A DNA stretch of 64,000 nucleotides from an uncultured Smithella sp. (GTDB lineage: Bacteria > Desulfobacterota > Syntrophia > Syntrophales > Smithellaceae), in contig CAYUDM010000003.1 of NCBI GenBank assembly GCA_964443625.1, positions 50,324-114,323 of the forward strand, read 5' to 3'. Of this stretch, positions 20,253 through 55,884 are shown piece by piece. Position 1 is the stretch's first letter. The number at the start of each line of letters is the position of its first letter. The translations under genes were made by a program, and so were the position numbers. The notes under the pieces were generated by a model. That model saw only the letters and a list, made by a program, of their open reading frames with translations. It ran no database searches and was not told where the DNA came from.

Positions 20253-20329
20253 AGGATAAAGGATAAAGTGGTATCTTCATCCTGTCGGTGTCGGTGAATA
20301 AAAACATTCTCCATGCGCTTGTTGAATGG

Positions 20330-26603: not shown

Positions 26604-26653
26604 ACGAGGGCGAGCTTTACCATTTGAGGGGCTTGTGCTACAAGCGAATAATC

Positions 26654-28819: not shown

Positions 28820-30535
28820 ATGTATGAACAAAAACCCTGGTTGACCTTTTATTCGCATGTTCCGCATTCCATCGACTATCCGCGTGTCACAATGTATGAG
28901 GCGCTTGCCCAGACGGCACGGGAAAAACCCGACGATATCGCCTATGACTTTCTGGGTTACACCTCCACCTATCGCACGTTTATGTTGGAGATTGACCGCT
29001 GCGCCGACGCGCTTGCCGCCCTGGGGCTTGCCCAAGGCGAACGCATCACCATCTCCATGCCCACATCCCCTCAGGGCATCATCGCCTTCTATGCCGCCAA
29101 CAAGCTGGGCGCAGTGGCCAGTATGATCCATCCGCTATCCACCGCCAAAGAAATTGAATTCTACCTCAACGTGGCCAAAAGCCGCTTTGCCCTGACGCTG
29201 GACGCTTTTTACGCCAAGTTCAGGGAAGTGAAAGACGCCACGCCACTTTCGACGCTGATCCTGGCGCGCATTCCGGATTATCTGAGCTTCGTCAAGCGCG
29301 TCGGCTTCAATCTGACCAAAGGCCGCCTGATTCCCAAAGTCCCCCACGACCCCATGGTGAAATGGTGGGCGGATCTGATGAAAGGCGGCTATCCCAAGGC
29401 GGAGCCCGCGCGGATGGGCACGGATGATCTGGCGGTGATTCTTTACAGCGGCGGGACCACGGGCGTTCCCAAAGGCATCATGCTGTCCAATATGAACTTC
29501 ATCAGTGAGGGCAAGATGGTCTCGGAATGGGGGAAGCTCGACAACGCCACGTCCGTGCTGGCGATTTTGCCGATCTTTCACGGGTTCGGTCTGGGGGTGT
29601 GCATCAATGCCTGCTTTATGGGCGGCGGCAAAAGCATTCTGGTACCGATCTTCACGCCGGAGACGGTGGCCGATCTGATGCGCAAACACAAGCCCTCATT
29701 CGTGATCGGCGTGCCCACGCTCTTTGACGCGCTCGCGCGCAATCCCAAGATGTCCAAGGCGGATTTGAGCTGCCTTAAGGCGACGTTTTCCGGCGCCGAC
29801 ATGCTGCCCCGTCCCGTCAAAGAGCGCTTCGAGGCGATGGTGAAAAGGCAGGGCGGCAATGTTCAGCTTCTGGAAGGCTACGGGCTGACGGAAGCCGTGA
29901 CGGCCATCATGGCCACGCCCATCGGCAGCTATCGGGAAGGCAGCATCGGCGTGCCGTTTCCGGACATGCTGGCCAAGATCGTCAAGCTCGAGACGCTGGA
30001 GGAAGCGCCGATAGGCGAGGAAGGCGAAATCTGCGTGGCGGGTCCCGCCGTGATGCTGGGCTATCTCGACCAGCCCGAAGAAACCGCCAATACGCTCAAA
30101 ACCCATGCCGACGGCCGGGTCTGGCTGCACACCGGCGATATCGGCACGATGGACGAGGATGGGTTTTTCTATTTCAAACTGCGACAGAAAAGAATGATCA
30201 AATCCTCCGGGATGAACGTCTATCCCGCGCAGGTGGAAGAGTTGCTTTACCGCCACCCGAAAGTGCGCGATGCGTGTGTCATCGGCGTGCCGGATGAGGC
30301 GCAGGTTCAGGCGGTGAAAGCTTTCATTGTTTTGAAAAACCCCGGCGACGCCGGCGCCGCAGCCGAAAAGGAACTCATTGATTATTGCCGGGAGCATCTC
30401 ATTAAATGGAGCTGCCCCCGGGCGATTGAATTCCGCGACGATCTGCCCAAAACGCTTGTCGGCAAGGTCGCCTACAATACGCTGGAGAAACAGGAAATTG
30501 CCCGACTCAAGCAGGAAGGCAAATTTTTCGGTTAA
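28820..30535 (+). CDS. Long-chain fatty-acid--CoA ligase (AMP-dependent synthetase/ligase)
   Basis: The AMP-binding motif ILYSGGTTGVPKGIMLS, plus GYGLTE, TGDIG..DEDGFFYF and the C-terminal PKTLVGKV, are typical of FadD-like enzymes. Confidence 0.85.
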   Translation: MYEQKPWLTFYSHVPHSIDYPRVTMYEALAQTAREKPDDIAYDFLGYTSTYRTFMLEIDRCADALAALGLAQGERITISMPTSPQGIIAFYAANKLGAVASMIHPLSTAKEIEFYLNVAKSRFALTLDAFYAKFREVKDATPLSTLILARIPDYLSFVKRVGFNLTKGRLIPKVPHDPMVKWWADLMKGGYPKAEPARMGTDDLAVILYSGGTTGVPKGIMLSNMNFISEGKMVSEWGKLDNATSVLAILPIFHGFGLGVCINACFMGGGKSILVPIFTPETVADLMRKHKPSFVIGVPTLFDALARNPKMSKADLSCLKATFSGADMLPRPVKERFEAMVKRQGGNVQLLEGYGLTEAVTAIMATPIGSYREGSIGVPFPDMLAKIVKLETLEEAPIGEEGEICVAGPAVMLGYLDQPEETANTLKTHADGRVWLHTGDIGTMDEDGFFYFKLRQKRMIKSSGMNVYPAQVEELLYRHPKVRDACVIGVPDEAQVQAVKAFIVLKNPGDAGAAAEKELIDYCREHLIKWSCPRAIEFRDDLPKTLVGKVAYNTLEKQEIARLKQEGKFFG

Positions 30536-32269: not shown

Positions 32270-33172
32270 ATGAAGACCTTTTCTTACAAAGTGGCGGTTT
32301 TTTTAACTCACCGGCTGGGGGTATGGTTTTTCCGGACCTTTTCGTGGTTTATCGCCACCGGATATTTCCTTTTTTTCCCCCTCCGTGTAAAAGAAAGCCT
32401 GAAATTTTACCGGGCGGTTTTCCCGCAGAAGGGCCTGGCCGGTCACCTGTATTGTGTCTGGAAGCAATACCACAACTTTACCGATGTCTATGTCCACCGT
32501 TTCATTCCCTGGGCGGCCGGCGAGGCGCGCTTTACCCGCGAAGGATGGGAACACCTTGAAGAAGCGGTTCGGCAAAAAACAGGCGCGATCGTGGTGATGT
32601 CGCACATCGGCAACTGGGAGCTGGCTGCTCAAAGGCTTCAGGCGCAAGGTCTGCCGATTATGCTGTATTTGGGCGCCAAGCACAAAGAGCAGGTGGAAAA
32701 AATCCAGAAGGAGAAGCTTGCCCACGCCGGTATCCGGGTTGTGGCGACCGATGAACGGGATAAATCGCCGTTTGCGCTTCTGGAGGGCGTCCAGTTTCTT
32801 CGGGATGGCGGCATTGTTTCTATGACCGGAGACCGTCTGTGGGGTGAGCAAAGTTTTGTGACGGTCTCCTTTCTCGGGCACGAAGTCCGCCTCCCCGACA
32901 CGCCGCATCTGTTTGCGCTTCTGACGGGCGCACCGCTGATGACCTTTTTCGTTTCTGAACGCTCGCCCAGCCAATACCATGTGACGGTGTCGCCGGGTCG
33001 CACCGTCTCCGCCTCGTCCCGTGCAGACCGCAGGAAAGCCGTGCAGGCTTCCGCTCAAATGTATGCCGACGACCTTGCGCGCTTCGCCCGGGCGCATCCT
33101 TTTCAATGGCATCACTTCGAGCCGTTTCTGGGCCCGAGGATTGACCAAAGCCATCATCAAAGGAATAAATAG
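32270..33172 (+). CDS. LpxL/HtrB-family (lysophospholipid / lipid A-type) acyltransferase
   Basis: N-terminal membrane anchor, catalytic box VMSHIGNWELAA (H-x4-E), and later MTGDR / G.P...F blocks as in lauroyl/myristoyl acyltransferases. Confidence 0.75.
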   Translation: MKTFSYKVAVFLTHRLGVWFFRTFSWFIATGYFLFFPLRVKESLKFYRAVFPQKGLAGHLYCVWKQYHNFTDVYVHRFIPWAAGEARFTREGWEHLEEAVRQKTGAIVVMSHIGNWELAAQRLQAQGLPIMLYLGAKHKEQVEKIQKEKLAHAGIRVVATDERDKSPFALLEGVQFLRDGGIVSMTGDRLWGEQSFVTVSFLGHEVRLPDTPHLFALLTGAPLMTFFVSERSPSQYHVTVSPGRTVSASSRADRRKAVQASAQMYADDLARFARAHPFQWHHFEPFLGPRIDQSHHQRNK

Positions 33173-33226
33173 AATTTTCTTTGCCCCGGTTTAGTTTTTG
33201 GTATAAAGAATCAAATTTGCGCCGAA

Positions 33227-33670
33227 ATGAAGGATGCGGGAGCCGCCATGAAAGTCAGTGAAGTGCCACAGGACATCACCTATTACGAGGGAGAAAAGCG
33301 TGCCTGCTACGCGCTTGACGACGAAGGCCGCTATGTTGTCGTGCCCAGCGCCGGCTGGAGCGCGGAAGATGTCGTCAACAGTCTGGCCGTGGAAGAACTC
33401 GCCCGGCAGCTTGAAGAAACCAGACAGGCGGTTGAAGCCGGACTCAAAAGCCCGCTTTGCTATCATATGGAGCGTCGCCAGATGAATCCCGAGATTCTGG
33501 GCAAGACGGCGGGCGTTGCCGTCTTCCGGGTGAAAAGACATTTCCGGCCGGAAATTTTCGCCAAACTCAAATCCTCCGTTCTGAGTCGTTACGCGCGAGC
33601 GTTGGCGGTGACACTCGACGAATTGATCACCGTGCCGAAACAGCCACCAGAAAGGGAATCCCGCTCATGA
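33227..33670 (+). CDS. Small protein with a C-terminal XRE-like helix-turn-helix
   Basis: The C-terminus ...ILGKTAGVAVFRVKRHFRPEIFAKLKSSVLSRYARALAVTLDELI has the HTH_XRE pattern. The start is ATG 33227 or ATG 33248. Its stop overlaps the next start (ATGA). Confidence 0.45.
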   Translation: MKDAGAAMKVSEVPQDITYYEGEKRACYALDDEGRYVVVPSAGWSAEDVVNSLAVEELARQLEETRQAVEAGLKSPLCYHMERRQMNPEILGKTAGVAVFRVKRHFRPEIFAKLKSSVLSRYARALAVTLDELITVPKQPPERESRS

Positions 33671-34701
33671 CCGAAGAACTGACCAGCGCCGGCAGGCCGT
33701 TTGTGCATCATCATTCCGCCCATTGTGAAAGCGGCGTCACGTCCGCGCTTTTCCGCGACAAGGGCGTGGAGTTGTCCGAAGCTATGGTATTCGGCATCGG
33801 CAGCGGCATTTTTTTCGGCCATCTGCCGTTTATCAAATGGGTGGGGCTGCCGATTACAACTTTCCGTTCACGGCCCGGCACGCTTTTTTCCAAAGTCGCC
33901 AAGCGCCTGGGCGGCGATTTCTTTACGAAGCGATACCGAAACGCCCGAAAAGGAATGGACGATCTGCGCCAGGCGCTTCGTCGGGGCCATATCGTGGGCC
34001 TCACCACCAACATCTACTGGCTTTCATACTTTCCCAACCGGTTTCGATTCCAGTTCAACGGCCATAATATCGTCGTTCTGCGCGAGATTGAAAACGGATT
34101 CCGCGTCAGTGATCCGGTACTCGAGCATCCGGTGGATTGCCTGACCGACGATCTCGAGCGGGCGCGTTTCGCCCGGGGACCGCTGGAACCCAAAGGATTT
34201 ATGTATTACGCCCGGTCCGTTCCGCAAAATCCCGACCTGCGCAAAGCCTGCGTCGCGGCGATGAAAGATTCGTGCAATATGATGCTGAGAATTCCGTTTC
34301 CCTTTGTCGGCATCCGGGGGATGCGCTGGCTGGCCAAGGCGACGATACAATCCCCGTCCAAACTCGGATTCCAGGAGGCCTGCCGTCGTCTGGCCAATAT
34401 CGTGCGCATGCAGGAAGAAGTCGGCACAGGCGGGGCGGGATTCCGCTTCATGTATGCCGCTTTTCTGCAGGAAACGGCAGGGCTTTTTGACTCCAGCGAA
34501 CTTTTGGAGCTCTCGCGCGAGATGACGGCCATCGGAGATCTCTGGCGCGAATTTGCCGTCGTTTCGGCTCGCATTATCAAGAAGCGGGGTCAGGCCGAAG
34601 AGACGTTCGAAAAAGCCGGCGGTCTGATGCTGATTTGTGCGGGCCGGGAAGAGAGCTTGTTTCGGGACCTGGATAAGATCGCAAGGAATCTTAGGGCATG
34701 A
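33667..34701 (+). CDS. BtrH N-terminal-domain (papain/C39-like fold) protein, 344 aa
   Basis: Taken from the internal Met MTEELTSAGRPFVHHHSAHCESGVTSALFRDKGVELSEAMVFGIGSGIFF... The conserved H-C-E-S-G nucleophile region and the later DPV.. segment resemble BtrH_N/DUF4872 proteins. The 70 aa upstream in the track ORF overlap the previous gene. Confidence 0.6.
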   Translation: MTEELTSAGRPFVHHHSAHCESGVTSALFRDKGVELSEAMVFGIGSGIFFGHLPFIKWVGLPITTFRSRPGTLFSKVAKRLGGDFFTKRYRNARKGMDDLRQALRRGHIVGLTTNIYWLSYFPNRFRFQFNGHNIVVLREIENGFRVSDPVLEHPVDCLTDDLERARFARGPLEPKGFMYYARSVPQNPDLRKACVAAMKDSCNMMLRIPFPFVGIRGMRWLAKATIQSPSKLGFQEACRRLANIVRMQEEVGTGGAGFRFMYAAFLQETAGLFDSSELLELSREMTAIGDLWREFAVVSARIIKKRGQAEETFEKAGGLMLICAGREESLFRDLDKIARNLRA

Positions 34702-35417
34702 ATGCGCTTTCAGTTTCATCCGTCACATTTTCCTATGACGGCGCGTCCGGGTATGCGCTTGATCATTTCTCTCTTTCCGTCGCAAAAGGCCGGATGCACG
34801 CCCTTTTGGGGCCCAACGGCGCGGGCAAATCGACGCTGATGAAGATCGTGACCGGGCAAATGCGCGGCTATTCGGGAGATGTACTTGTTTTCGGCCGCAA
34901 GATGCCCGACCGCCCGGCGCTTCTATCCATCGGCTATGCGCCCCAGCCGATATCACTTTATCCCGCTTTATCCGCCTATGAAAATTTACGCTTTTTCGGT
35001 GCGATGGCAGGCCTGTCCGGGATTCAGATCCGGGATCGCGCTGAAAATGTTTTGTCTCTTACTGGCCTTGTCGACTATGCCCGCCAGAAGGTTTCAACCT
35101 ATTCCGGCGGTATGCAAAGGCGGCTCAATCTGGCCGTCGCGCTTTTGCATACGCCGAAGCTTCTGCTTTTAGACGAGCCGACCGTCGGCGTTGATCCGCA
35201 AAGCCGCAACCACATCTATGACATGCTCGCGTCGCTCCATGCAGAAGGCATATCGATCCTGCTTTGCACGCACATGATGGAAGAGGCCCAGCGTCTGTGC
35301 GGAAGCGTGACGCTCGCCGATCGCGGCAGAGTCGTCTTTGACGGTCCGATGTCGGAGGTCGGCGATCTGGAGCAGTTCTTTCTTGAAAAGACGGGCAGGG
35401 GGCTGCGCGATGCCTAG
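34698..35417 (+). CDS. ABC transporter ATP-binding protein
   Basis: Walker A GPNGAGKST, signature YSGGMQRRL, Walker B LLLLDEP and an H-loop CTHMMEE. ATGA overlap with the upstream gene. Confidence 0.9.
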   Translation: MNALSVSSVTFSYDGASGYALDHFSLSVAKGRMHALLGPNGAGKSTLMKIVTGQMRGYSGDVLVFGRKMPDRPALLSIGYAPQPISLYPALSAYENLRFFGAMAGLSGIQIRDRAENVLSLTGLVDYARQKVSTYSGGMQRRLNLAVALLHTPKLLLLDEPTVGVDPQSRNHIYDMLASLHAEGISILLCTHMMEEAQRLCGSVTLADRGRVVFDGPMSEVGDLEQFFLEKTGRGLRDA

Positions 35418-36528
35418 ACTGGTTTTAGAACTCTTCAGAAAAGAACTGCTTCTGGTGGCGCGCGACCGGCAGACGCTTCTGCTTTTATTTGTCATGCCCG
35501 TGGCGCTCATCTTCTTTTTGTCGCTGGCCCTCAAGGGGGTTTATGTCGACAAGATCATCGGTCAAAAAGTCGCGGTGGTGATCGAGCAGGAGGGCACCTC
35601 TCCCAAAGTCGCAAAACTTGCGATGCGAATTGCGTCTTCATCGATGATCCGCCGTGTGGAACGCCCCGACGGCTTTGACAACCATCGCCTCTTCGAGGCG
35701 GGCAGGGCCCAGGCTATTGTTCGAATTCCCGACGGTTTTGAACAGGGGGGGCGTCCCGTGGAAGTTCAGTTCGATCCGGTTCTGGACGCGGGCTACCGGA
35801 TCGCGCTCAAATCGCTCGTTTCGGGTTTAACCCTCGAAGTCGTCATGGATGCAGACCCTCTCGAGACGATTGCCGCTGCGTTCGTCGTGGAAAAGACCCG
35901 CCCCAACCGCTCATTTCCCAGCCCCCTGCAGCAAAGCGTTCCAGGCTGGACGATCTTTGCGATGTTCTTTATCGCGATTCCCTTGTCACTGGGGTTTCTG
36001 CGGGAAAAAAGCGACGGCACGCTTCAGCGTCTTTTCACCTATCCTGTGAAACCTTCGCTTGTCGCCGTAGGAAAAGTGATTCCCTATTACCTGATCAACA
36101 ATGTGCAATTCGCCTTGATGTTTTTCGTCGGCGTCTGGATTATGCCGGCCATTCTGGGATTGCCTTTTGATCTGGGCGGTCATCCCTGGCATTTGATTCC
36201 GATTACACTGGTGACCGCTGCCGCGGCGACGGGATTTGGCGCGCTGATTGCCACGTGTGCGCGATCGGCCGAGCAGGCGGCCACGCTGGCCGCGACGCTT
36301 TCGGTTCTCGCGGGCGTCTTCGGCGGCATCATGGTGCCTCATATCGTCATGCCGGCACTCATGAAAAAACTGGCAATGATCTCGCCGATGTATTGGGCGC
36401 ATCAGGCCTATCTGGACGTGCTGTTGCGGGAAGCCTCGCTTGCGGTCATCGTTCCGAAATTAATTGTGTTGACAGTCTTTGCGTTAATTTGTTTTTATAT
36501 CGCCGGAAGGAGAGTGCAATGGATTTAG
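35410..36528 (+). CDS. ABC-2-type transporter permease
   Basis: Starts MPRLVLELFRKELLLVARDRQTLLLLFVMP. One N-terminal TM segment, a roughly 170-aa external loop, then five TM segments. This is the typical ABC-2 exporter topology. Confidence 0.8.
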   Translation: MPRLVLELFRKELLLVARDRQTLLLLFVMPVALIFFLSLALKGVYVDKIIGQKVAVVIEQEGTSPKVAKLAMRIASSSMIRRVERPDGFDNHRLFEAGRAQAIVRIPDGFEQGGRPVEVQFDPVLDAGYRIALKSLVSGLTLEVVMDADPLETIAAAFVVEKTRPNRSFPSPLQQSVPGWTIFAMFFIAIPLSLGFLREKSDGTLQRLFTYPVKPSLVAVGKVIPYYLINNVQFALMFFVGVWIMPAILGLPFDLGGHPWHLIPITLVTAAAATGFGALIATCARSAEQAATLAATLSVLAGVFGGIMVPHIVMPALMKKLAMISPMYWAHQAYLDVLLREASLAVIVPKLIVLTVFALICFYIAGRRVQWI

Positions 36529-36830
36529 ACAAGGCTTATCTGGAATTGAATGTATCCTCCCGGGAGGAACTCATTTTCAAACTCAAAGAATTGGTGATTC
36601 GCGCCTGTGAGATTCAGGACGTCCGTCCGGAAGATGTTCCGACGGATGTGCCCTTTATCGGCGGGCCGGGCCCCCTCAAACTGGACTCGCTCGATGCCAT
36701 GGAAATTGCGATGGAGCTTCGCTATACATTCGGCGTCGAGTTGAAAAATGCATCAACGGCCGCACAGGCAATGCAGTCGTTCGATACGCTGGCCGATTTT
36801 GTGATCTCTGCGCCGAAGGTTAAGAAGTGA
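36519..36830 (+). CDS. Acyl carrier protein (103 aa)
   Basis: Phosphopantetheine attachment motif LKLDSLDAMEIAMEL (DSL). ATG 36519 is preceded by GGAAGGAGAG and overlaps the permease stop by 10 nt. Confidence 0.8.
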   Translation: MDLDKAYLELNVSSREELIFKLKELVIRACEIQDVRPEDVPTDVPFIGGPGPLKLDSLDAMEIAMELRYTFGVELKNASTAAQAMQSFDTLADFVISAPKVKK

Positions 36831-38002
36831 GCGAAAACGCCGTTTATATCCGCGGGTGGGGGGCGGTCTCCACGCTGGGATGGACCGCCGACGAATCCGC
36901 GCGCCGTCTTTTGGCGGGCGATGTCCGGCCGGCCGGCCGATGTTCGTCGTCTCATTTGGTCAACTGTGAATTCAAGGCATTCGAAGCGCCTTTTGAGGGT
37001 AATCCGCTGGACAAGGCGCTGGCGATGCTGGACCGATCCATCACGGAAGCTTTTGATCGCGGACGACTGTCGCGTGAAGAAATCGCGGAAAGCTCCCTTT
37101 TGGTCGGCACCACCGGTGGCCTGTTCATCCGCAACGAATTCGAGTTTATGGAATCCGTGCGTCTGCACCCGGAGAAAGAAACACCGCCGATCTCATGCCG
37201 CAACCGTGGGCCCGGGGAGACCACCGAGTTCATTGCCGAAAAATTCGGGATCGGCGGCATGACGTTCACGTTGAGCATGGCGTGCGTGTCGAGTTCGCAC
37301 GCGCTGGTGGTGGCCAACGGGCTTTTGCGGCAGGGAAAAATCCGCCGTGCGGTCATTGTGGGATTCGAACCGCTTCTGAATATGACACTGCACGGTTTTT
37401 CCAGTCTTTTGCTATACGATGCCGACCGCTGCCGGCCCTTTTGCAACACGCGCTCCGGCATGCAGATCGGCGAAGGTGCCGCCTGTATAATCTTGGAAGC
37501 AAAACCCGCCTCCGAAACAAAACATTTCTATGCGTTCAAAGGCGGATATCTTTTTAACGACAATTCATCGCTCACGTCCGCCGGCACGGATGGCGAGATG
37601 GTCAAAACCGTGGTGGAAGAAGCGCTCGGGCGCGCTCGGGTGGCCGTTGATGACATTGTTGCGGTCAAAGCCCACGGTACGGGAACCCGGGACAATGATT
37701 TGTCGGAAGGGCGAGGATTAAAAAAAGTCTTCGGGGAGGGTCTGCCGCCGGTGATTTCCTTAAAAGGCGCCATCGGCCACGAACTCGGGGCGGCCGGAGC
37801 CGTGGAAACAGCGATTTGGCTGTCCTGTCTGGAACAGGGGTCGATTCCGGCAAGCGTCGGTTTTTCCGAACCGGATCCGGAGATCGGATTGATCCCATCC
37901 ACTAGGATTTTGTCGGCTGCCGACGGAGCTTATCTGTTTAACTTTTTCGGCTTCGGCGCGACCTTCACCAGTTACGTGATTGAGAGGACATCAGCCGCCT
38001 GA
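36827..38002 (+). CDS. Beta-ketoacyl-ACP synthase (FabF/FabB-type, Cys-His-His)
   Basis: Active-site Cys in FTLSMACVSSSHAL, His in VKAHGTGT and His in AIGHELGAAG, with C-terminal FGFGATFTS. The GTG start overlaps the ACP stop (GTGA). Confidence 0.85.
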   Translation: MSENAVYIRGWGAVSTLGWTADESARRLLAGDVRPAGRCSSSHLVNCEFKAFEAPFEGNPLDKALAMLDRSITEAFDRGRLSREEIAESSLLVGTTGGLFIRNEFEFMESVRLHPEKETPPISCRNRGPGETTEFIAEKFGIGGMTFTLSMACVSSSHALVVANGLLRQGKIRRAVIVGFEPLLNMTLHGFSSLLLYDADRCRPFCNTRSGMQIGEGAACIILEAKPASETKHFYAFKGGYLFNDNSSLTSAGTDGEMVKTVVEEALGRARVAVDDIVAVKAHGTGTRDNDLSEGRGLKKVFGEGLPPVISLKGAIGHELGAAGAVETAIWLSCLEQGSIPASVGFSEPDPEIGLIPSTRILSAADGAYLFNFFGFGATFTSYVIERTSAA

Positions 38003-38004
38003 AA

Positions 38005-38988
38005 ATGGCGAATCGAGACAGGCCTATGACGACTCAAAAAATAATTGTTCCCGTTTCCGTGATCGCCGCCGGGTATGTGGGGCCGTCGCTTGCGCCCAAT
38101 GAGGACGCTTCCTGGAGAGAAGCGGACCTGCCTTATAATTGCGATGCTCTGGTGCTAAACGTCCTGGGTCAACCCATGCGGCGGGCCGGACGCTTTATCA
38201 AGATGGTTTGCGCGGGCGCTCTGTCGTGTCTGAAATCCGCGCCGTCCGATGCGCCAAAGAGTGCGAAGACCGGAATATTCCTGGCCACAGGGTTGGGTAA
38301 CGGCGATGAAATTCTTCCGTTTGTCACACAGGTCTTCAAGCACGACGGCGGTTTTCCCAGTCCTAATCAGTTCGCCAATTCCGTGAGCAATGCTGCGGCG
38401 TTTTTTCTGGCGCGTCTAAGCGGCGTCAAAGGCGTGGTTCTGACGGTTTCCGACGAAGAGCTGTCGTTTGAGTCCGCCTTGTGGTTGGCGCAAAGCTATC
38501 TGGCTGCCGGAGAGATCGATTTGGCGCTTGTCGGCGGCTGCGACGTGTATACACCGACCATCGAAGAATATCGCGAGCGCATGTATGTGCACCCGGACAA
38601 TGCCAGAGACCTGCCGATCGGCGAAGGCAGTTCCTGGCTGCTCTTAGGAATGAATTCAAGTTCAAGAATCGGGGAGATCCGCTCGGTTCGGATGCATGCA
38701 AAAACGACCGGGCCTGCGGATATTTTTCAGGACGAAGAAATCGCTTTGGCCGTCGGAAGGGACGCCGCAGCGACGCGCCGCCTCTGGTTGCCGGGTTTTC
38801 GGATGATGCAACCGGCCGCGCCGCCGGGTTGGGAATGCGCCGATTATCTTCCCTGCTGCGGTATTCATCCGACCGCCTCAGCGTTCGGCTTAGCGCGCGC
38901 CTTGCTCAGAGAACCGGGCAGTGTGCTGCTTTCCGTGGGCGTTTCGACCTCGGGCAAGAAAGCGCTCGTGGTGGCGGCGGCGGACTGA
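38005..38988 (+). CDS. KS-like protein lacking the catalytic Cys (chain-length-factor / Ketoacyl-synt_2-like partner)
   Basis: The KS N-domain-like blocks GIFLATGLGNG and PNQFANSVSNAAAFFLARLSGVKGVVLTVS are followed by DEELSF where A-C-x-S-G would sit. The HGTGT and GH.LGAAG motifs are absent. The gene starts 2 nt after the KS stop. Confidence 0.65.
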   Translation: MANRDRPMTTQKIIVPVSVIAAGYVGPSLAPNEDASWREADLPYNCDALVLNVLGQPMRRAGRFIKMVCAGALSCLKSAPSDAPKSAKTGIFLATGLGNGDEILPFVTQVFKHDGGFPSPNQFANSVSNAAAFFLARLSGVKGVVLTVSDEELSFESALWLAQSYLAAGEIDLALVGGCDVYTPTIEEYRERMYVHPDNARDLPIGEGSSWLLLGMNSSSRIGEIRSVRMHAKTTGPADIFQDEEIALAVGRDAAATRRLWLPGFRMMQPAAPPGWECADYLPCCGIHPTASAFGLARALLREPGSVLLSVGVSTSGKKALVVAAAD

Positions 38989-38997
38989 CGATCGGAT

Positions 38998-40488
38998 TTG
39001 AAACGGGCGATTATGGTGAAGGAGTTCTCAGGCGGGAAAAAACGTATTGTTCTGGTTCACCCGCGCGGTTTCAACTGGTTTCCGGGAAAACGGGACATCA
39101 CCGATATCGCCAATCGTATGGTGCCGCAAGGGTTGCTGTCGATTGCGGCCTATTTGCTTCGTGACGGCCACGACGTTTTTGTCTATGACTGTCTGGGGCC
39201 CGGCGCGCCGGTTGGAATCGATCGTCAGGTTTCGGATATTCTCCTTTTCCGACCGCAGCTGGTCGGGTTTTCATCCACCACCTCTTCGTTTCCGGACGCG
39301 GCGGATCTCGCGGCCGGAATCAAAAGGCGGCAAAGCGACATCGTCACGGTCTGCGGCGGCGTCCATGTGTCCGCTTTGCGCGAAAAACTGCTTGAGGCTT
39401 ATCCCGTCTTCGATTTCCTGGTGGCCGGAGAAGGGGAAGTCACGATGAGCGAACTCGCCTGTGGCGACGATCCGAAGGGGATTGCCGGATTGATTCGCAG
39501 GCAGGATGACACGGTTGTTGTCAATCCGCCCAGAGGACACCTTCCGGATCTTGATGCTCTGCCGTTTCCCGCCTATGAAAAATTGCGCGGTTTTCCGACG
39601 CACTACCACTTGCCGCTTTTCAGTTACATTTCAACGCCCGGCGCGACGATGATCACGTCGCGCGGCTGTATGTTTTCGTGCTCGTACTGCGACCGATCGG
39701 TCTTCCAGAAAGGATACCGGTTCAATTCCGCGGCGTATATCTATGATCATATGAAGTATCTGCGAGACCGATTCGGCGCGCGCCATATCAATATCTATGA
39801 CGATCTTTTTACCGCCAATCGCCGCCGGATCGTCGAGCTGTGCGAAAAACTGGCACGCCAACCGCTGGGGATGAACTTCAATTGCGCCGTGCGCGTGGGC
39901 TACACGGACGATGATCTGCTTGCCCTGCTCAAAAAAGCGGGATGTCTGATGGTGTCTTTGGGTATCGAATCGGCGGACGCCGACATGCTGGCCCGTCATA
40001 AATCCGGCGTGTCGCTGGATGAGGTGAAAGATACCGTGAGGCGCATTCAGACGGCGGGGCTTCGCGCTAAGGGCCTTTTCATGATGGGGCTGCCGGGCGA
40101 AACCGAAGCATCCGTGAAGAGAACCTCCGATTTCATTATTTCACTGGGACTCGACGACATGAATATGGCCAAGTTCACGCCGTTTCCCGGGGCGCCGCTG
40201 TGGCCGACCATCCGGGAGGAAGGGACCTTTCATGAAGACTGGCGCCTGATGAATTGTCTGAACTTCGTGTTTGTTCCGAAAGGGATCGCGTCCGCGCAAA
40301 GGCTTGATTTGCTGTACAACGAGCATGTCAAAAGATTCTATTCCGATCCGGCTTGGCGCAGGCGTTTTCGCGGGCGGCTGTGGCAGCATCGAAAAAGTTT
40401 ATGGTATCTGTTGCGCCATCTGCCGTCTTTTTGGTCGGCCAAAAACCAGTTTGAGCCGGATCGCAACAAGGTTCCTGAAGAATGTTAA
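38998..40488 (+). CDS. B12-binding-domain radical SAM protein (class B rSAM)
   Basis: N-terminal Rossmann-like cobalamin-binding region (IVLVHP...VGFSSTT...VCGGVH...) and the radical SAM cluster motif SRGCMFSCSYCD (CxxxCxxC). The start may be ATG 39013. Confidence 0.85.
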   Translation: MKRAIMVKEFSGGKKRIVLVHPRGFNWFPGKRDITDIANRMVPQGLLSIAAYLLRDGHDVFVYDCLGPGAPVGIDRQVSDILLFRPQLVGFSSTTSSFPDAADLAAGIKRRQSDIVTVCGGVHVSALREKLLEAYPVFDFLVAGEGEVTMSELACGDDPKGIAGLIRRQDDTVVVNPPRGHLPDLDALPFPAYEKLRGFPTHYHLPLFSYISTPGATMITSRGCMFSCSYCDRSVFQKGYRFNSAAYIYDHMKYLRDRFGARHINIYDDLFTANRRRIVELCEKLARQPLGMNFNCAVRVGYTDDDLLALLKKAGCLMVSLGIESADADMLARHKSGVSLDEVKDTVRRIQTAGLRAKGLFMMGLPGETEASVKRTSDFIISLGLDDMNMAKFTPFPGAPLWPTIREEGTFHEDWRLMNCLNFVFVPKGIASAQRLDLLYNEHVKRFYSDPAWRRRFRGRLWQHRKSLWYLLRHLPSFWSAKNQFEPDRNKVPEEC

Positions 40489-40535
40489 AAAGTTCGCAAG
40501 GCTAATAAAAAATACAAGAAAGAGAGGAAAGGTCT

Positions 40536-41522
40536 ATGGGATTATCTCGGAAAAGGATGGCGATTTTTACTGCGGCGACCGTGTTTGTTTTTCTATGTGC
40601 CGGGTTTGCTTTTGCTCAGACGGAAAACATTAAAGGCGTCGCCTTTAGCGACGGCGTTACCGTTTACGGCAAGGTTGTTAAAATGTCGGCCGATGAAATC
40701 CAGATCGAAACCGGCGAAGGCGCGCTGGTGACGCGCCGGTTTGTCGACGTGGAGCGTCTGATCAAAGAGGATGATCCCCCGGAAGTCCGAACGCCGAGAC
40801 ATTTTTTTTCCATCGGAACTGAAGTGTCCTATATCAAGTACAAGGAACCGGATGTCATGCAGGAAGACGGCATGATGCTCGGTCTGGTGGGCTCCTATGC
40901 CTACCGAAACCGGGTGATGCTCAAGGCTGAAGGGAAATTTGCTTACGGTCTTATGGAGTACGACGGCCGGACGATGGGCGGCACGCCGCTTACCATATCA
41001 AACATTCCGAATTATTTTCTCGAAGGCCGGGGGCTGGTCGGATATGACTTTGCCGTCGGCATCGTGACCATTACGCCTTACGCCGGGCTGGGCTACCGCT
41101 GGCTGCAGGATAATCCGCAAAGAAAATATCCCGGCGGCTATCAGAGAGAGTCGAACTACTTCTATGCGCCTTTGGGAGTGGAGACGGTTTTGGAATTGGG
41201 CAAAGGCTGGTTTGTGGCGGCCAACCTTGAATACGACGCGTTTATCTGGGGAAAGCAGAAGTCCAAATTCAGCGAGATGGTTGCGGGGTTTAACGATCTG
41301 GAAAACCGCCAGCATAACGGGTTGGGTATCCGGGGCGGCGTCTCCTTCGGCCTAAAAGGCGCCCGGGTGGGGTTTGTTGTCGAACCGTATGTGCGCTACT
41401 GGAAGATTGAGGAATCCGACGTTGCGTGGCTTGCCTATTACGGAGCGTTCACCGGCGACGGTTTTGTGGAGCCCAAAAACAAATCCACGGAAGTCGGTTG
41501 TCGCATCGCCGTGACGTTTTAA
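40536..41522 (+). CDS. Putative outer-membrane beta-barrel protein
   Basis: Signal peptide ...VFVFLCAGFAFAQT, repeated Y/G-rich amphipathic strands, and a C-terminal ...CRIAVTF ending in Phe. Confidence 0.5.
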   Translation: MGLSRKRMAIFTAATVFVFLCAGFAFAQTENIKGVAFSDGVTVYGKVVKMSADEIQIETGEGALVTRRFVDVERLIKEDDPPEVRTPRHFFSIGTEVSYIKYKEPDVMQEDGMMLGLVGSYAYRNRVMLKAEGKFAYGLMEYDGRTMGGTPLTISNIPNYFLEGRGLVGYDFAVGIVTITPYAGLGYRWLQDNPQRKYPGGYQRESNYFYAPLGVETVLELGKGWFVAANLEYDAFIWGKQKSKFSEMVAGFNDLENRQHNGLGIRGGVSFGLKGARVGFVVEPYVRYWKIEESDVAWLAYYGAFTGDGFVEPKNKSTEVGCRIAVTF

Positions 41523-41541
41523 GCGCCGGGTGACAAAAACG

Positions 41542-54540: not shown

Positions 54541-55884
54541 ATGGCAGCAGTATCTGACGTGCGCATGGGGAAAAAACTGAAAATTCTGCTTGTTAATCCG
54601 CCGAACTGCGGCCGCAGCATTCCCGAGGAACAATACGGCATTACCTCGCTGAAAAGAATCTTCAAAGGCGAGCCGTTCAGCCTGGAAGTCCTGGCCGGAC
54701 CGCTTTGCGAGCATGATGTGCGCATTTTCGATGGTAAGTGCGAACCTTCCGATACCCTGTTTGATCTTGCGTCCTCCTGGCAGCCGGATATCGTCGGCTT
54801 TACGGCGTTGACCTGCGAAACCAATACCGTGATCCGTCAAGCCGCGACGATCCGGAATATCGTTCCGGCCATAACGGTTGTCGGCGGCAACGCGGCCACC
54901 TGTCATCCCGAGTCTTTCAATCGATCCGAATTCGACTATGTCGCCATTGGTCTGGCCAAAAAGAGCTTCGCCGAACTCGTCAATTGCCTGGCCGCCGGAA
55001 AATCGGCTTTCGGCATCGGCGGGATCGCCCGCGTCGAGGCGTCAAAGCCCCTGTCCTGGAAGCCTCGGCCCTACAGCCGGAAAGACGCGATGGAGGATGT
55101 GGCGCCGCGCTACGATCTGGTTTCTCAGTATCGCAGCCATTACTATCTGGAACAGCTCGGCCTCGCGATGGGTTTTGTCGTGACGGCCTACGGCTGCACG
55201 CATGCCTGCTCGTTTTGCACGATTCCGGGGCTGACCGGTGGAAAATATCTGACCCAGTCGGCCGACTCGGTTGTGCGCGACATCCGGCTTTTGGGAGACA
55301 TTCCATTTGTTCGAATGGTAGACGCCAATACATTCGGGAACAAAGCCCAGGCCATGGAACTGTGCCGGAAGATTCAAAAGGCCGGCATCCGGAAAAAATA
55401 CTTTGCCGATGTGCGCGCCGACACGGTTATTCGTCATCCCGACCTGATTGCCGCATGGAAAGAAGCGGGTTTGTATGCTGTTGTTGTCGGTTTTGAAGAT
55501 CTTGCCGCCGAACGTCTGGAGGCCTACAACAAAAAATATTCCGGATCGGCCGTGCGCCGCGCGATCGACATCCTGCATGATCTGGGGGTTGTCATTGTCG
55601 GCGATTTCATCGCCTCCCCCGACTATGTCGAAGCCGATTTCCAAAGACTCGAGGGCTTTATCGTCAAAAACCGCATCGAGATACCGGTCATTTCGGTTTT
55701 GACACCGATGCCCGGAACACCGCTTTATCAGGCGAAGAAGACAGACATTGTCATTACCGATCTGGACTATTATACCTTTACCAACGCTGTGACAAAGACG
55801 GCATTGCCGGAAGATCAGTTTTATAAAATTTATGCCGATCTGGTCATGAAACTGCACGCCCGACCCCATCGGCCGGAGGCGTAA
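54541..55884 (+). CDS. B12-binding-domain radical SAM protein (second copy in the window)
   Basis: N-terminal cobalamin-binding-like region (KILLVNPP...IVGFTALT...VVGGNA) and the cluster motif AYGCTHACSFCTIPG (CxxxCxxC). Confidence 0.85.
   Translation: MAAVSDVRMGKKLKILLVNPPNCGRSIPEEQYGITSLKRIFKGEPFSLEVLAGPLCEHDVRIFDGKCEPSDTLFDLASSWQPDIVGFTALTCETNTVIRQAATIRNIVPAITVVGGNAATCHPESFNRSEFDYVAIGLAKKSFAELVNCLAAGKSAFGIGGIARVEASKPLSWKPRPYSRKDAMEDVAPRYDLVSQYRSHYYLEQLGLAMGFVVTAYGCTHACSFCTIPGLTGGKYLTQSADSVVRDIRLLGDIPFVRMVDANTFGNKAQAMELCRKIQKAGIRKKYFADVRADTVIRHPDLIAAWKEAGLYAVVVGFEDLAAERLEAYNKKYSGSAVRRAIDILHDLGVVIVGDFIASPDYVEADFQRLEGFIVKNRIEIPVISVLTPMPGTPLYQAKKTDIVITDLDYYTFTNAVTKTALPEDQFYKIYADLVMKLHARPHRPEA

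What the first reader, a model, noticed from the sequence alone, without database searches (positions are those of the whole stretch)
32270..41522. Orphan ACP/KS/KS-like + B12-radical-SAM + BtrH-like + ABC-2 exporter + LpxL-like acyltransferase operon: candidate system for making and exporting a modified lipid
Ten same-strand genes occupy this interval:
- LpxL/HtrB-type acyltransferase (HIGNWE box)
- small HTH protein
- BtrH_N-like papain-fold protein
- ABC ATPase
- ABC-2 permease
- ACP (DSL motif)
- Cys-His-His KS
- Cys-less KS-like partner
- class B (cobalamin-domain) radical SAM enzyme
- signal-peptide beta-barrel protein

From 33227 to 40488 they are linked by overlaps (ATGA, GTGA, 8-10-nt overlaps) or 2-10-nt gaps, so they form one translationally coupled operon.

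The KS plus truncated KS-like plus ACP plus LpxL-like acyltransferase core recalls aryl-polyene-type outer-membrane lipid clusters. This locus, however, lacks the KR, DH, thioesterase, LolA-like and MMPL components. In their place it has a B12-rSAM enzyme, a BtrH-like protein and an ABC-2 exporter.

My inference is that an acyl chain is built or extended on the dedicated ACP and modified by radical chemistry, for example C-methylation at an unactivated carbon. It would then be transferred to a lipid or amine acceptor and exported to the envelope. I do not recognise this architecture as a characterised pathway.
Basis: partly seen in the sequence, partly recalled or inferred. Interest (0 to 1): 0.75.

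Follow-up and report, generated by a model that had tools for sequence, protein, structure and literature searches.

The report
Anaerobe's flexirubin/resorcinol-type lipid gene cluster
The operon is real, but it is not an orphan: it is the accessory and lipid-anchoring half of a flexirubin/dialkylresorcinol-type pigment-lipid pathway in a strictly anaerobic Smithellaceae bacterium, whose ring-forming enzyme lies 14 kb away beside a second B12 radical-SAM enzyme that sits where the usual aromatase would be.

Summary
Every domain call was confirmed, and the genes from 33227 to 40488 are linked by overlaps of 4-10 nt or gaps of 2-9 nt.

The architecture is recognisable:
- Genes 2-8 are the DarG-DarH-ABC-ABC2-ACP-KS-KS-like accessory block of dialkylresorcinol (DAR)/flexirubin clusters. 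NCBIfam DarG_fam and DarH_acyl both score above cutoff, and the gene order matches Chitinophaga and Azoarcus.
- The LpxL-like, ACP, KS, KS-like and B12-rSAM genes ("rSAM-I") recur together inside aryl-polyene-type clusters of other Thermodesulfobacteriota, for example Geomonas paludis.
- The window also holds a StlD/DarB ketosynthase (55897-57039). A second B12-rSAM ("rSAM-II", 54541-55884) lies directly upstream of it.
- In eight loci from other, mostly delta-labelled lineages, this pair lies inside the DarGH cluster.
- Across 51 DarB loci the upstream partner is DarA in 33 and rSAM-II in 12, never both.
- Twelve other Smithellaceae loci keep the LpxL-to-rSAM-I block. Several extend it upstream with an aromatic ammonia-lyase, a thioesterase, GT2, an MMPL-methyltransferase and an AMP-ligase.
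- The tenth gene (OMP) is not conserved.

Verdict: a new variant of a known kind. The chemistry of both rSAMs is unknown. Interest 0.5.

The parts
28820..30535 (+). AMP-dependent acyl ligase (fatty-acid-CoA-ligase-like). Tentative member: a possible loader of the dedicated ACP.
   Evidence: Pfam AMP-binding + AMP-binding_C. Best NCBIfam hit is long-chain-fatty-acid-CoA ligase, 413 bits, below the 705 cutoff. Orthologs of 83-89% identity lie on the same strand just upstream of the LpxL-like gene in L002, L006 and L007. In the window it is separated from the operon by two minus-strand genes (CPBP, UbiA).
32270..33172 (+). LpxL/HtrB-superfamily (ApeD-like) lipid acyltransferase
   Evidence: Pfam PF03279, 70.6 bits. 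All NCBIfam LpxL/PIM equivalogs score far below cutoff. The HIGNWE motif is present. Conserved as the first gene of the block in Smithellaceae. It lies next to rSAM-I in L018, L087 and L088.
33227..33670 (+).
   Evidence: NCBIfam NF053536 DarG_fam, 141 bits against a cutoff of 70. No Pfam hit. Lies directly upstream of DarH in about 77 of 80 loci. ATGA overlap with DarH.
33667..34701 (+). DarH, a BtrH-related papain-fold acyltransferase
   Evidence: NCBIfam NF053550 DarH_acyl, 402 bits against a cutoff of 300. Pfam BtrH_N + DUF4872. Cys20 and His133 are invariant and Asp149 is nearly invariant across 41 family members.
34698..35417 (+). ABC ATPase (DarI position)
   Evidence: Pfam ABC_tran. 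Syntenic with the Dar cluster ATPase in Chitinophaga, Flavobacterium and Azoarcus (PMC3949708).
35410..36528 (+). ABC-2 permease (DarJ position)
   Evidence: Pfam ABC2_membrane_3. Syntenic.
36519..36830 (+). Dedicated acyl carrier protein (DarC position)
   Evidence: Pfam PP-binding, 21 bits, at threshold. DSL motif present. NCBIfam NF006617, 39 bits, below cutoff. 77-93% identical in Smithellaceae loci.
36827..38002 (+). Elongating ketosynthase (DarD position), Cys-His-His
   Evidence: Pfam ketoacyl-synt N and C. Active-site Cys and both His align to FabF 8Z5C.
38005..38988 (+). Catalytically dead KS-like partner (DarE/CLF-like)
   Evidence: Weak ketoacyl-synt N, and PF13723 at 20 bits, below cutoff. 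Cys is replaced by Glu and both His are absent. The same position is occupied by a KS-like gene in Chitinophaga and by a PF13723 gene in L086 and L088.
38998..40488 (+). rSAM-I: B12-binding-domain radical SAM enzyme of an uncurated family
   Evidence: Pfam B12-binding + Radical_SAM. CMFSCSYC at residues 219-226. All NCBIfam models are far below cutoff; the best is HpnJ at 164 against 577. Orthologs are 76-83% identical in Smithellaceae and 44-48% identical in L014, L018, L025, L040, L041, L045 and L086-L088. AF2 model pLDDT 79.6; nearest folds are AprD4, TsrM, MgmA and TokK.
40536..41522 (+). Signal-peptide beta-barrel OMP. Probably co-transcribed here, but not a conserved member.
   Evidence: Weak Autotransporter beta domain. 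No homolog in 88 related loci. A hairpin-like inverted repeat occurs only after this gene, at 41503-41553.
54541..55884 (+). rSAM-II: second B12-binding radical SAM enzyme, in the position that DarA occupies in canonical clusters
   Evidence: Pfam B12-binding + Radical_SAM. CTHACSFC at residues 219-226. 25% identical to rSAM-I. Best NCBIfam hit is HpnR at 159 against 650. Orthologs of 48-69% identity lie directly upstream of DarB in 11 other loci.
55897..57039 (+). StlD/DarB-family head-to-head condensing ketosynthase (cyclohexanedione/resorcinol ring former)
   Evidence: NCBIfam NF005293 StlD/DarB subfamily, 530 bits against a cutoff of 450. The narrower DarB model scores 446 against 550. 400 bits, full length, to the StlD crystal structure 5GK0. 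45% identical to the experimentally validated C. pinensis DarB.

Best explanation
The interval is a nine-gene, translationally coupled operon of a Smithellaceae (Syntrophales) genome. The nine genes are LpxL-like, DarG, DarH, ABC ATPase, ABC-2 permease, ACP, KS, KS-like and B12-rSAM-I. An unconserved OMP gene follows.

The operon is a fusion of two known modules:
- the DarG-to-DarE accessory block of dialkylresorcinol/flexirubin clusters;
- the acyltransferase/ACP/KS/CLF lipid module of aryl-polyene-type clusters.

Its ring-forming partner is in the same window: a StlD/DarB ketosynthase preceded by a second B12-rSAM (54541-57039).

Proposed mechanism (all steps inferred from family knowledge; none shown here):
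1. The AMP-ligase loads an acid onto the dedicated ACP.
2. KS plus its dead partner extends it with malonate to a beta-ketoacyl-ACP (or a longer chain, with help from the fatty-acid synthase).
3. DarB condenses a beta-ketoacyl and a 2-enoyl thioester head-to-head into a carboxy-cyclohexanedione.
4. rSAM-II, which sits where the DarA aromatase normally sits, either aromatises this to a resorcinol without DarA or alkylates it.
5. DarH (Cys-His-Asp, BtrH-like) moves an ACP-bound acyl group onto a hydroxyl or amine of the product.
6. The LpxL/ApeD-like enzyme puts an ACP-bound chain onto a lysophospholipid anchor.
7. rSAM-I tailors that chain or head group.
8. The ABC-2 pump exports the product towards the outer membrane.

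The product would be a flexirubin-like (alkyl/aryl)resorcinol or cyclohexanedione lipid made without oxygen.
For: Identity of the modules:
- DarG_fam and DarH_acyl score above the curated cutoffs.
- Gene order G-H-ABC-ABC2-ACP-KS-KSlike is identical to Chitinophaga pinensis and Azoarcus BH72 (PMC3949708 Table 1).

DarB in the window:
- tblastn E = 2e-107.
- StlD/DarB subfamily above cutoff.
- Full-length match to StlD 5GK0.

Physical linkage elsewhere:
- Orthologs of the rSAM-II-DarB pair lie inside the DarGH cluster in L018, L020, L025, L026, L032, L035, L049 and L057.
- L018 and L025 also carry rSAM-I.

Co-presence within the family: the two other Smithellaceae genomes checked, on long contigs, carry both loci (and 44/45).

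DarA displacement:
- Of 51 DarB genes, 33 have DarA directly upstream, 12 have rSAM-II, 4 have neither and 2 are at a contig edge. None has both.
- The rSAM-II-linked DarBs fall in one clade, which also holds one DarA-linked member, L034.

rSAM-I module: when the search is anchored on rSAM-I itself, it lies beside LpxL-like/ACP/KS/PF13723 genes in APE-type clusters of Geomonas paludis and a metagenome contig, and beside the LpxL-like gene alone in Desulfococcaceae.

Long-form relatives add an aromatic ammonia-lyase, a 4HBT thioesterase, GT2, an MMPL-methyltransferase and an AMP-ligase. These are the flexirubin/APE initiation and export genes (PMC3992019; bioRxiv 10.1101/2020.12.19.423268).

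Basis for the inferred roles:
- ApeD transfers an ACP-bound acyl to lysoPG (same preprint).
- StlB loads ACP StlE (bioRxiv 10.1101/2022.10.20.513026).
- The DarB/DarA reaction is described in PMC6836626.
Against: - In Smithellaceae the two loci are never adjacent: 14 kb apart in the window, about 690 kb and 1.8 Mb apart in two other genomes.
- rSAM-I modules exist without DarGH or DarB within 10 kb (L086, L087). DarGH + rSAM-I clusters also exist without DarB within 10 kb (L040, L041, L045). The DarB link is therefore not obligatory.
- DarA occurs in some anaerobe-labelled loci (L034, L037, L046 and Bacteroidales MAGs). 'rSAM-II replaces an oxygen-requiring DarA' is thus not established, and I could not find DarA's cofactor.
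- The window lacks the ammonia-lyase, KR, DH, MMPL and GT2 genes.
- No function of DarG, DarH or the Dar ABC pump has been shown experimentally in the papers read.
- Neither rSAM reaches any curated family cutoff, and the nearest solved structure, AprD4, is not a methylase.
Confidence: 0.62

Rival explanations
1. The operon works on its own as an aryl-polyene-like lipid pathway and has no functional tie to DarB. KS, KS-like and ACP build a special acyl chain. rSAM-I modifies it. The LpxL/ApeD-like enzyme esterifies it to a lysophospholipid. DarG/DarH and the ABC-2 pump handle transfer and export. The rSAM-II-DarB pair is a separate small pathway, for example for a diffusible cyclohexanedione or resorcinol.
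For: - The two loci are unlinked in all three Smithellaceae genomes examined.
- rSAM-I + LpxL-like + ACP/KS/KS-like occur without DarB or DarGH within 10 kb in L086-L088.
- DarGH + rSAM-I occur without DarB within 10 kb in L040, L041 and L045.
- The rSAM-II-DarB pair keeps its own housekeeping neighbourhood, PrmA-RsmE-RDD.
Against: - DarG and DarH are families defined on DAR clusters and sit next to DarB in most loci (51 DarB genes across the loci examined).
- In eight loci the very orthologs of the window's rSAM-II-DarB pair are embedded among the DarGH/ACP/KS genes.
- All three Smithellaceae genomes that could be checked have both loci.
Confidence: 0.27
2. One reading: an uncharacterised, self-contained orphan pathway. 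An acyl chain is built on the ACP, C-methylated at an unactivated carbon by the B12-rSAM, passed to a lipid or amine acceptor by the BtrH-like and LpxL-like enzymes, and exported. It belongs to no recognised cluster family.
For: - Domain content is as described.
- Most characterised B12-binding rSAM enzymes are methylases; TsrM, MgmA, TokK and CysS are among the fold hits.
- No paper was found that describes this gene set.
Against: - Seven genes map one-to-one onto the Dar accessory block (PMC3949708).
- DarB is in the window.
- Relatives carry the flexirubin/APE initiation and export genes.
- The best sequence and fold match of rSAM-I is the non-methylating AprD4.
Confidence: 0.06
3. A peptide (RiPP-like) maturation and export system. 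The papain/C39-like BtrH_N protein acts as a leader peptidase, the ABC-2 pump as exporter, the B12-rSAM as peptide modifier, and the small DarG-like ORF as precursor or regulator.
For: - The BtrH_N profile weakly matches a C39-like peptidase, 3ERV.
- rSAM-I has below-cutoff hits to the RiPP rSAMs ApyD and rSAM_ocin_1.
Against: - ACP, KS and LpxL-like genes are translationally coupled in the same operon.
- DarG is a conserved protein of 130-147 aa with invariant residues along its whole length, not a leader-core peptide.
- Context in all taxa is polyketide/lipid.
Confidence: 0.02

Closest known systems
Dialkylresorcinol (dar) / flexirubin gene clusters of Chitinophaga pinensis, Flavobacterium johnsoniae and Azoarcus sp. 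BH72 (darA, darB plus accessory genes)
   Same: - Same seven-gene accessory block in the same order: small DarG protein, BtrH-like DarH, ABC ATPase, ABC-2 permease, ACP, KS, KS-like.
- A StlD/DarB-family ketosynthase is present in the window.
- LpxL-like acyltransferases are also found in those clusters, and relatives of the window cluster carry the ammonia-lyase, 4HBT and MMPL/methyltransferase genes.
   Different: - No DarA aromatase; a B12-rSAM (rSAM-II) sits upstream of DarB instead.
- DarB is 14 kb away rather than adjacent to DarG.
- An additional B12-rSAM (rSAM-I) closes the operon.
- No polyene KR/DH genes in the window.
- The host is a strict anaerobe of the Syntrophales.
Aryl polyene (ape) clusters and their APE-lipid products (E. 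coli CFT073, Xenorhabdus doucetiae)
   Same: - LpxL/ApeD-like acyltransferase, dedicated ACP, and KS with a non-catalytic KS-like partner.
- Outer-membrane lipid logic.
- rSAM-I orthologs sit inside full APE-type clusters with ApeI/ApeP-like dehydratases, LolA, MMPL and 4HBT in Geomonas paludis.
   Different: - The window lacks the core DH (apeI/P), KR (apeQ) and MMPL (apeM) genes listed as defining in bioRxiv 10.1101/2020.12.19.423268.
- It has an ABC-2 pump and DarGH instead.
- B12-rSAM genes are not part of the described ape clusters.
Photorhabdus isopropylstilbene pathway (StlA PAL, StlB AMP-ligase/AasS, StlE ACP, StlD ketosynthase-cyclase, StlC aromatase)
   Same: - A dispersed (unlinked) gene arrangement.
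- A DarB/StlD-type cyclase (400 bits to StlD).
- An AMP-ligase and a dedicated ACP.
- An ammonia-lyase in long-form relatives.
   Different: - No StlC/DarA.
- Extra DarGH, ABC-2, LpxL-like and two B12-rSAM genes.
- The product is unknown.
Cobalamin-binding-domain (class B) radical SAM enzymes: AprD4, TsrM, MgmA/QCMT, TokK, OxsB, CysS, HpnR, HpnJ, BchE
   Same: - N-terminal B12-binding Rossmann domain plus a CxxxCxxC radical SAM core in both rSAM-I and rSAM-II.
- The fold of rSAM-I matches this group, with TM up to 0.74.
   Different: - At most 23% identity to any solved member.
- Every curated NCBIfam model is far below cutoff.
- Substrate and reaction type are unknown.
BtrH of butirosin biosynthesis (ACP-to-aminoglycoside acyltransferase)
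   Same: - BtrH_N + DUF4872 architecture.
- Conserved Cys/His.
- A dedicated ACP is encoded nearby.
   Different: - The acceptor is certainly not an aminoglycoside.
- DarH is a separate equivalog family (NF053550).
- Activity is untested.

Membership tests
Dialkylresorcinol/flexirubin dar cluster | StlD/DarB-type head-to-head ketosynthase | tested here: met
   Window 55897-57039. NF005293 scores 530 bits against a cutoff of 450, and the match to StlD 5GK0 is 400 bits. The narrower NF053539 DarB model scores 446 against 550, so that model is not met.
Dialkylresorcinol/flexirubin dar cluster | DarA aromatase adjacent to DarB | tested here: not met
   tblastn with C. pinensis DarA finds nothing in the 64-kb window at E <= 1e-3. 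A B12-rSAM occupies the upstream position. The rest of the genome could not be searched.
Dialkylresorcinol/flexirubin dar cluster | DarG and DarH accessory proteins | tested here: met
   NF053536 scores 141 against a cutoff of 70. NF053550 scores 402 against 300.
Dialkylresorcinol/flexirubin dar cluster | ABC ATPase + ABC-2 permease + ACP + KS + KS-like in the canonical order after DarH | tested here: met
   Same order as L024 (C. pinensis) and the Azoarcus Table 1 (PMC3949708).
Dialkylresorcinol/flexirubin dar cluster | DarB physically within the accessory cluster | tested here: not met
   15.4 kb separates rSAM-I's end (40488) from DarB's start (55897), with housekeeping genes between. The feature is met in relatives L018, L020, L025, L026, L032, L035, L049 and L057.
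Dialkylresorcinol/flexirubin dar cluster | Product is a 2,5-dialkylresorcinol or its ester | not testable with these tools
   Needs chemistry.
Aryl polyene (ape) cluster, core set per bioRxiv 10.1101/2020.12.19.423268 | KS, ACP and CLF (PF13723-type) | tested here: inconclusive
   KS and ACP are present. The KS-like partner hits PF13723 at 20.1 bits, below the cutoff of 25. The orthologous position in L086 and L088 is annotated PF13723.
Aryl polyene (ape) cluster, core set per bioRxiv 10.1101/2020.12.19.423268 | Dehydratases (ApeI/ApeP), ketoreductase (ApeQ) and MMPL transporter (ApeM) | tested here: not met
   None among the window genes scanned. The MMPL query finds nothing in the window. 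MMPL is present in long-form Smithellaceae relatives, and ApeI/ApeP-like, LolA and MMPL genes are present in L086 and L088.
LpxL/HtrB lipid A late acyltransferase | Scores as an LpxL/LpxP equivalog | tested here: not met
   PF03279 superfamily is met (70.6 bits). TIGR02207 scores 30 against 298, and all other equivalogs are far below cutoff. It is better described as ApeD-like.
Cobalamin-dependent (class B) radical SAM enzymes | B12-binding domain + CxxxCxxC radical SAM core | tested here: met
   Met by both rSAM-I and rSAM-II. The rSAM-I fold matches AprD4, TsrM, TokK and OxsB.
Cobalamin-dependent (class B) radical SAM enzymes | Methyl transfer to substrate (methylase subclass) | not testable with these tools
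   No curated methylase family reaches cutoff. The top structural neighbour, AprD4, is a dehydratase.
BtrH-type ACP-dependent acyltransferase | BtrH_N + DUF4872 with a conserved catalytic Cys/His | tested here: met
   Pfam scores 129 and 169 bits. C20 and H133 are invariant, and D149 is at least 90% conserved, in 41 sequences.

The most novel reading that the evidence does not exclude
In several anaerobic lineages the DarA aromatase of resorcinol biosynthesis has been displaced by a dedicated B12-binding radical SAM enzyme (rSAM-II). This enzyme would carry out an oxygen- and DarA-independent oxidative decarboxylation/aromatisation, or a radical alkylation, of the DarB cyclohexanedione product. 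A second, highly conserved B12-rSAM family (rSAM-I; at least 69% identity among the 120 best hits, which include Desulfobacterales- and Geomonas-labelled proteins) would be an undescribed tailoring enzyme of aryl-polyene/flexirubin-type outer-membrane lipids in anaerobes. Together they would define an 'anaerobic flexirubin-like lipid' class with two new radical SAM reactions.
Probability: 0.3. Interest if true: 0.7.

Novelty: new variant of a known kind. Interest (0 to 1): 0.5.

Why it matters
Aryl-polyene and flexirubin/resorcinol clusters are among the most widespread bacterial biosynthetic clusters. They are usually discussed as antioxidant outer-membrane pigments of aerobes and host-associated bacteria.

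This locus shows a conserved version in obligately anaerobic syntrophs and in sulfate- and metal-reducer lineages, where B12 radical-SAM enzymes have been recruited:
- A B12-rSAM ORF is present in 21 of 27 Thermodesulfobacteriota/delta-labelled DarH loci, against 0 of 28 loci from aerobic Bacteroidota genera.
- In 12 loci the rSAM stands exactly where the DarA aromatase normally stands.

This gives a concrete, testable candidate for new radical chemistry on a cyclohexanedione/resorcinol scaffold. It also gives a handle on the still-unknown roles of the Dar accessory genes (DarG, DarH, ABC-2, KS/KS-like). Alkylresorcinol-type lipids from such organisms could matter as sediment or digester biomarkers. 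The rSAM-I cluster is present in a cultured organism, Geomonas paludis, so experiments are feasible.

Tried and rejected
- **DarG as an HTH regulator.** No Pfam, NCBIfam (other than DarG) or PHROGs match. The single-sequence AF2 model was too poor to use (pLDDT 56). A 19-sequence profile found nothing in the PDB. Left unverified.
- **DarH and DarA against solved structures.** No sequence hit for either as a single sequence. The DarH profile gave only weak AziU3/Azi29 and C39-like peptidase matches, plus artefactual coiled-coil hits.
- **Promoter/terminator scan of 28.5-42.5 kb.** Promoter-like sites were below the shuffle expectation, and the terminator-like sites were not informative.
- **Oxygen dependence of DarA/StlC as a rationale for displacement.** No cofactor information in the papers read. 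DarA occurs in anaerobe-labelled MAGs. I do not rely on this rationale.
- **OMP as the counterpart of PagL-like or MipA-like barrels in related clusters.** No similarity to anything in 88 loci, even at E <= 10. Rejected as a conserved part.
- **AMP-ligase as a 4-coumarate ligase.** The best matches are long-chain fatty-acid-CoA ligases, all below cutoff. Substrate left open.
- **Literature searches** joining DarB or aryl polyene with radical SAM, or dialkylresorcinol with Smithella/Syntrophus/Desulfobacterota, returned no relevant paper. This is absence in the held library only.
- **Fold search of rSAM-I.** It confirmed the class but not the reaction.

Full report
**1. The observation**

The interval 32270-41522 carries ten + strand ORFs.
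- Lip_A_acyltrans
- BtrH_N + DUF4872
- ABC_tran
- ABC2_membrane_3
- a marginal PP-binding hit on a 103-aa protein with a DSL motif
- a complete ketosynthase
- a partial KS-like protein
- B12-binding + Radical_SAM
- a signal-peptide protein with a weak autotransporter beta-domain match

Junctions from 33227 to 40488 are -4, -4, -8, -10, -4, +2 and +9 nt. The KS keeps Cys-His-His. Its partner has Glu for Cys and lacks both His.

Two details need correcting. The 'HTH' label on the 147-aa protein could not be verified. The last gene (OMP) has no counterpart in any related locus.

**2. What the genes are called elsewhere**

NCBIfam places the 147-aa protein in DarG_fam (141 bits, cutoff 70). It places the BtrH-like protein in the equivalog 'BtrH-related acyltransferase DarH' (402 bits, cutoff 300).

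The published dar cluster of Azoarcus BH72 runs as follows (PMC3949708, Table 1): darA aromatase, darB cyclase, a conserved hypothetical, a BtrH-like protein, an ABC ATPase, an ABC permease, an ACP, a KS and a hypothetical. Chitinophaga pinensis uses the letters G, H, I, J, C, D, E for the same set (PMC12968099).

I re-derived that order on a C. pinensis locus (L024): DarA-like ORF, DarB (NF053539, 620 bits), DarG, DarH, ABC ATPase, ABC-2 permease, ACP, KS, KS-like. Genes 2-8 of the finding are therefore the canonical Dar accessory block. Only DarA and DarB have a demonstrated function in the papers read (PMC3992019, PMC6836626).

**3. The missing ketosynthase is in the window**

A tblastn search with C. 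pinensis DarB hits 55900-57036 (45% identity, E = 2e-107). The same search shows a second B12-rSAM at 54541-55884.
- The DarB-like ORF passes the StlD/DarB subfamily cutoff (530 against 450) but not the narrower DarB model (446 against 550).
- It aligns end to end with the StlD crystal structure (400 bits).
- The upstream ORF ('rSAM-II') has B12-binding + Radical_SAM domains and a CxxxCxxC motif. It is 25% identical to the operon's 'rSAM-I' and ends 12 nt before DarB.
- No DarA homolog is found in the 64 kb.

**4. Comparative genomics**

The organism is a member of the Smithellaceae (Syntrophales, Thermodesulfobacteriota). rSAM-I has hits of 77-88% identity named Smithella/Smithellaceae.

I built a 41-sequence DarH alignment in which C20 and H133 are invariant and D149 is nearly invariant. 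With it I retrieved 80 genome loci. I then scored every locus with the window's proteins plus C. pinensis DarA and DarB. Six results follow.

(a) *Conservation in the family.* Twelve other Smithellaceae loci keep the order LpxL-like, DarG, DarH, ABC, ABC-2, ACP, KS, KS-like, rSAM-I in varied flanks. Some have a tandem duplicate of DarG-DarH.

(b) *A long form.* In L002, L003, L007, L008 and L012 (partly L006 and L085) the block extends upstream with an aromatic amino-acid ammonia-lyase, a 4HBT thioesterase, a Dak2/DegV fusion, GT2 and an MMPL-methyltransferase fusion. L002, L006 and L007 also have an AMP-ligase 83-89% identical to window 28820-30535. The window is a 'short form' that lacks these genes, apart from the ligase.

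(c) *The rSAM-II-DarB pair elsewhere.* Orthologs (48-53% and 52-58% identity) lie inside the DarGH/ACP/KS cluster in L018, L020, L025, L026, L032, L035, L049 and L057. L018 and L025 also have rSAM-I.

(d) *DarB's upstream partner.* Over all 51 DarB genes the gene directly upstream is DarA in 33, rSAM-II in 12, neither in 4 and unknown (contig edge) in 2. It is never both. The rSAM-II-linked DarBs form one clade that also includes one DarA-linked member, L034.

(e) *Both loci within Smithellaceae.* Two other Smithellaceae genomes with long contigs carry both loci, about 690 kb and 1.8 Mb apart. The pair keeps its PrmA-RsmE-RDD neighbourhood.

(f) *B12-rSAM ORFs by lineage.* They occur within 10 kb of DarH in 21 of 27 Thermodesulfobacteriota/delta-labelled loci, and in 0 of 28 loci from aerobic Bacteroidota genera.

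**5. Anchoring on rSAM-I instead of DarH**

A search with the L025 ortholog returned a large, well-conserved family (at least 69% identity among the best 120) that includes Desulfobacterales and Geomonas.

- *Geomonas paludis.* The gene sits in a full aryl-polyene-type cluster: AMP-binding, aromatic lyase, ApeP-like, LolA, MMPL, ApeI-like, 4HBT, KS, CLF, rSAM-I, ACP, KS, PF13723 KS-like, PagL, GT2-DUF2062, deacetylase/methyltransferase and LpxL-like.
- *A metagenome contig.* It is similar, with the LpxL-like gene directly after rSAM-I, two further tandem B12-rSAMs and an ABC-2 pump.
- *A Desulfococcaceae genome.* Only rSAM-I and the LpxL-like gene are together, near MlaA/MlaC.

The window's rSAM-I is 44-48% identical to these. 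rSAM-I therefore travels with the LpxL-like/ACP/KS/KS-like lipid module rather than with DarB.

**6. Mechanism**

What is shown is gene identity, order, conservation and co-occurrence. Everything about chemistry is inferred, on these grounds:
- *Ring formation.* DarB/StlD enzymes join a beta-ketoacyl and a 2-enoyl thioester into a carboxy-cyclohexanedione. DarA/StlC/BrtC then aromatises it with decarboxylation (PMC6836626).
- *Substrate supply.* A KS with a dead partner and a private ACP, without KR or DH, is well suited to deliver a beta-ketoacyl-ACP.
- *ACP loading.* An AMP-ligase can load such an ACP, as StlB does for StlE (bioRxiv 10.1101/2022.10.20.513026).
- *Lipid anchoring.* ApeD, the LpxL-like enzyme of ape clusters, is proposed to put an ACP-bound conjugated acyl chain on lysophosphatidylglycerol (bioRxiv 10.1101/2020.12.19.423268).
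- *DarH.* BtrH transfers an ACP-bound acyl group to an amine (my knowledge of butirosin biosynthesis). DarH keeps a Cys/His/Asp set.
- *rSAM-II.* It occupies DarA's place. It may aromatise the cyclohexanedione by radical oxidative decarboxylation, or alkylate it.
- *rSAM-I.* It probably tailors the ACP- or lipid-bound chain.

The reaction type of neither rSAM can be read from sequence. All curated models are far below cutoff. The rSAM-I model (pLDDT 79.6) resembles AprD4 (TM 0.69/0.74), then TsrM, MgmA, TokK, OxsB and CysS.

**7. Caveats and rivals**

- The two loci are unlinked in Smithellaceae.
- rSAM-I modules, and some DarGH + rSAM-I clusters, lack DarB within 10 kb.
- An independent aryl-polyene-like lipid pathway is therefore a serious rival (0.27).
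- DarA occurs in some anaerobe-labelled MAGs, so an 'oxygen-free replacement' rationale is not established.
- A RiPP reading is very unlikely, given the coupled ACP, KS and LpxL-like genes.

**8. Comparison and novelty**

The locus works like, and is largely built from, the flexirubin/DAR and aryl-polyene cluster families. It fails two membership features of the canonical dar cluster: there is no DarA, and DarB is not contiguous. It also lacks the core DH, KR and MMPL genes of ape clusters.

The new elements are the two uncurated B12-rSAM families and the DarA/rSAM-II alternation. I found no paper describing either, which shows absence only in the held library.

I classify the locus as a new variant of a known kind and score interest at 0.5. 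It is not low, because the rSAM displacement is a specific and testable lead to new enzymology.

Noticed in passing
window 26531-27613 and 27621-28745 (+): A Ski2/HelY-like helicase is split into two ORFs: a DEAD/ResIII N-half, and a Helicase_C + DSHCT C-half. The tail of the first ORF looks out of frame. This is a likely frameshift, pseudogene or sequencing error.
   Followed up: partly
window 21647-24682 (-): Pyruvate phosphate dikinase (PPDK_N, PEP-utilizers, PEP-utilizers_C) carries a Lys/Ala-rich, histone-H1-like C-terminal extension of about 110 aa. This is unusual for this enzyme.
   Followed up: no
window 11056-14052 (-): A 998-aa protein combines leucine-rich repeats with a permuted papain-like amidase domain (Peptidase_C92). 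The neighbouring 448-aa ORF (9705-11051) has no Pfam match.
   Followed up: no
window 17248-21598: Three lipid-remodelling genes lie about 10 kb upstream of the operon: a GDPD phosphodiesterase, a 735-aa PlsC-type acyltransferase fused to an alpha/beta hydrolase, and an Acyl_transf_3 membrane acyltransferase. No link to the cluster was tested.
   Followed up: no
L001 2375-5394; L002 9555-12499: The DarG-DarH pair is tandemly duplicated in L001 and L002. The second copy in L002 is 53% and 66% identical to the window's proteins. Gene spacing in L004, L011 and L012 suggests the same. The window has a single pair.
   Followed up: partly
L040 41-4121; L041 75-3956; L045 1973-4805; L088 7350-11455: Two or three B12-binding radical SAM genes stand in tandem, the last one being the rSAM-I ortholog. 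The others are only 23-25% identical to rSAM-I and rSAM-II. This suggests multi-step radical tailoring in those clusters.
   Followed up: partly
L076 6778-13046 (Bacteroidales MAG): The arrangement is LpxL-like, a third kind of B12-rSAM (25% identical to rSAM-I), a 145-aa ORF, DarG, DarH, ABC, ABC-2. There is no DarA or DarB within 10 kb. This looks like an independent recruitment of an rSAM into a Dar-type cluster in an anaerobic Bacteroidota lineage.
   Followed up: partly
window 41503-41553: An 18-nt inverted repeat (83% complementary, 15-nt loop) lies at the convergent junction of the OMP gene and the YggS-like gene. It is a candidate bidirectional terminator. No such hairpin lies between rSAM-I and the OMP gene.
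   Followed up: no
window 30557-32037 (-): A CPBP/Rce1-like intramembrane protease and a UbiA-family prenyltransferase, overlapping by 4 nt, are inserted on the opposite strand between the AMP-ligase and the LpxL-like gene. In L002 and L007 the ligase and the LpxL-like gene are almost adjacent.
   Followed up: partly
L087 10001-17113 (Desulfococcaceae HSG8): A minimal rSAM-I + LpxL-like pair lies a few kb from MlaC/MlaA outer-membrane lipid-asymmetry genes, with no KS or ACP nearby. This hints that rSAM-I may act on a phospholipid-type substrate.
   Followed up: no
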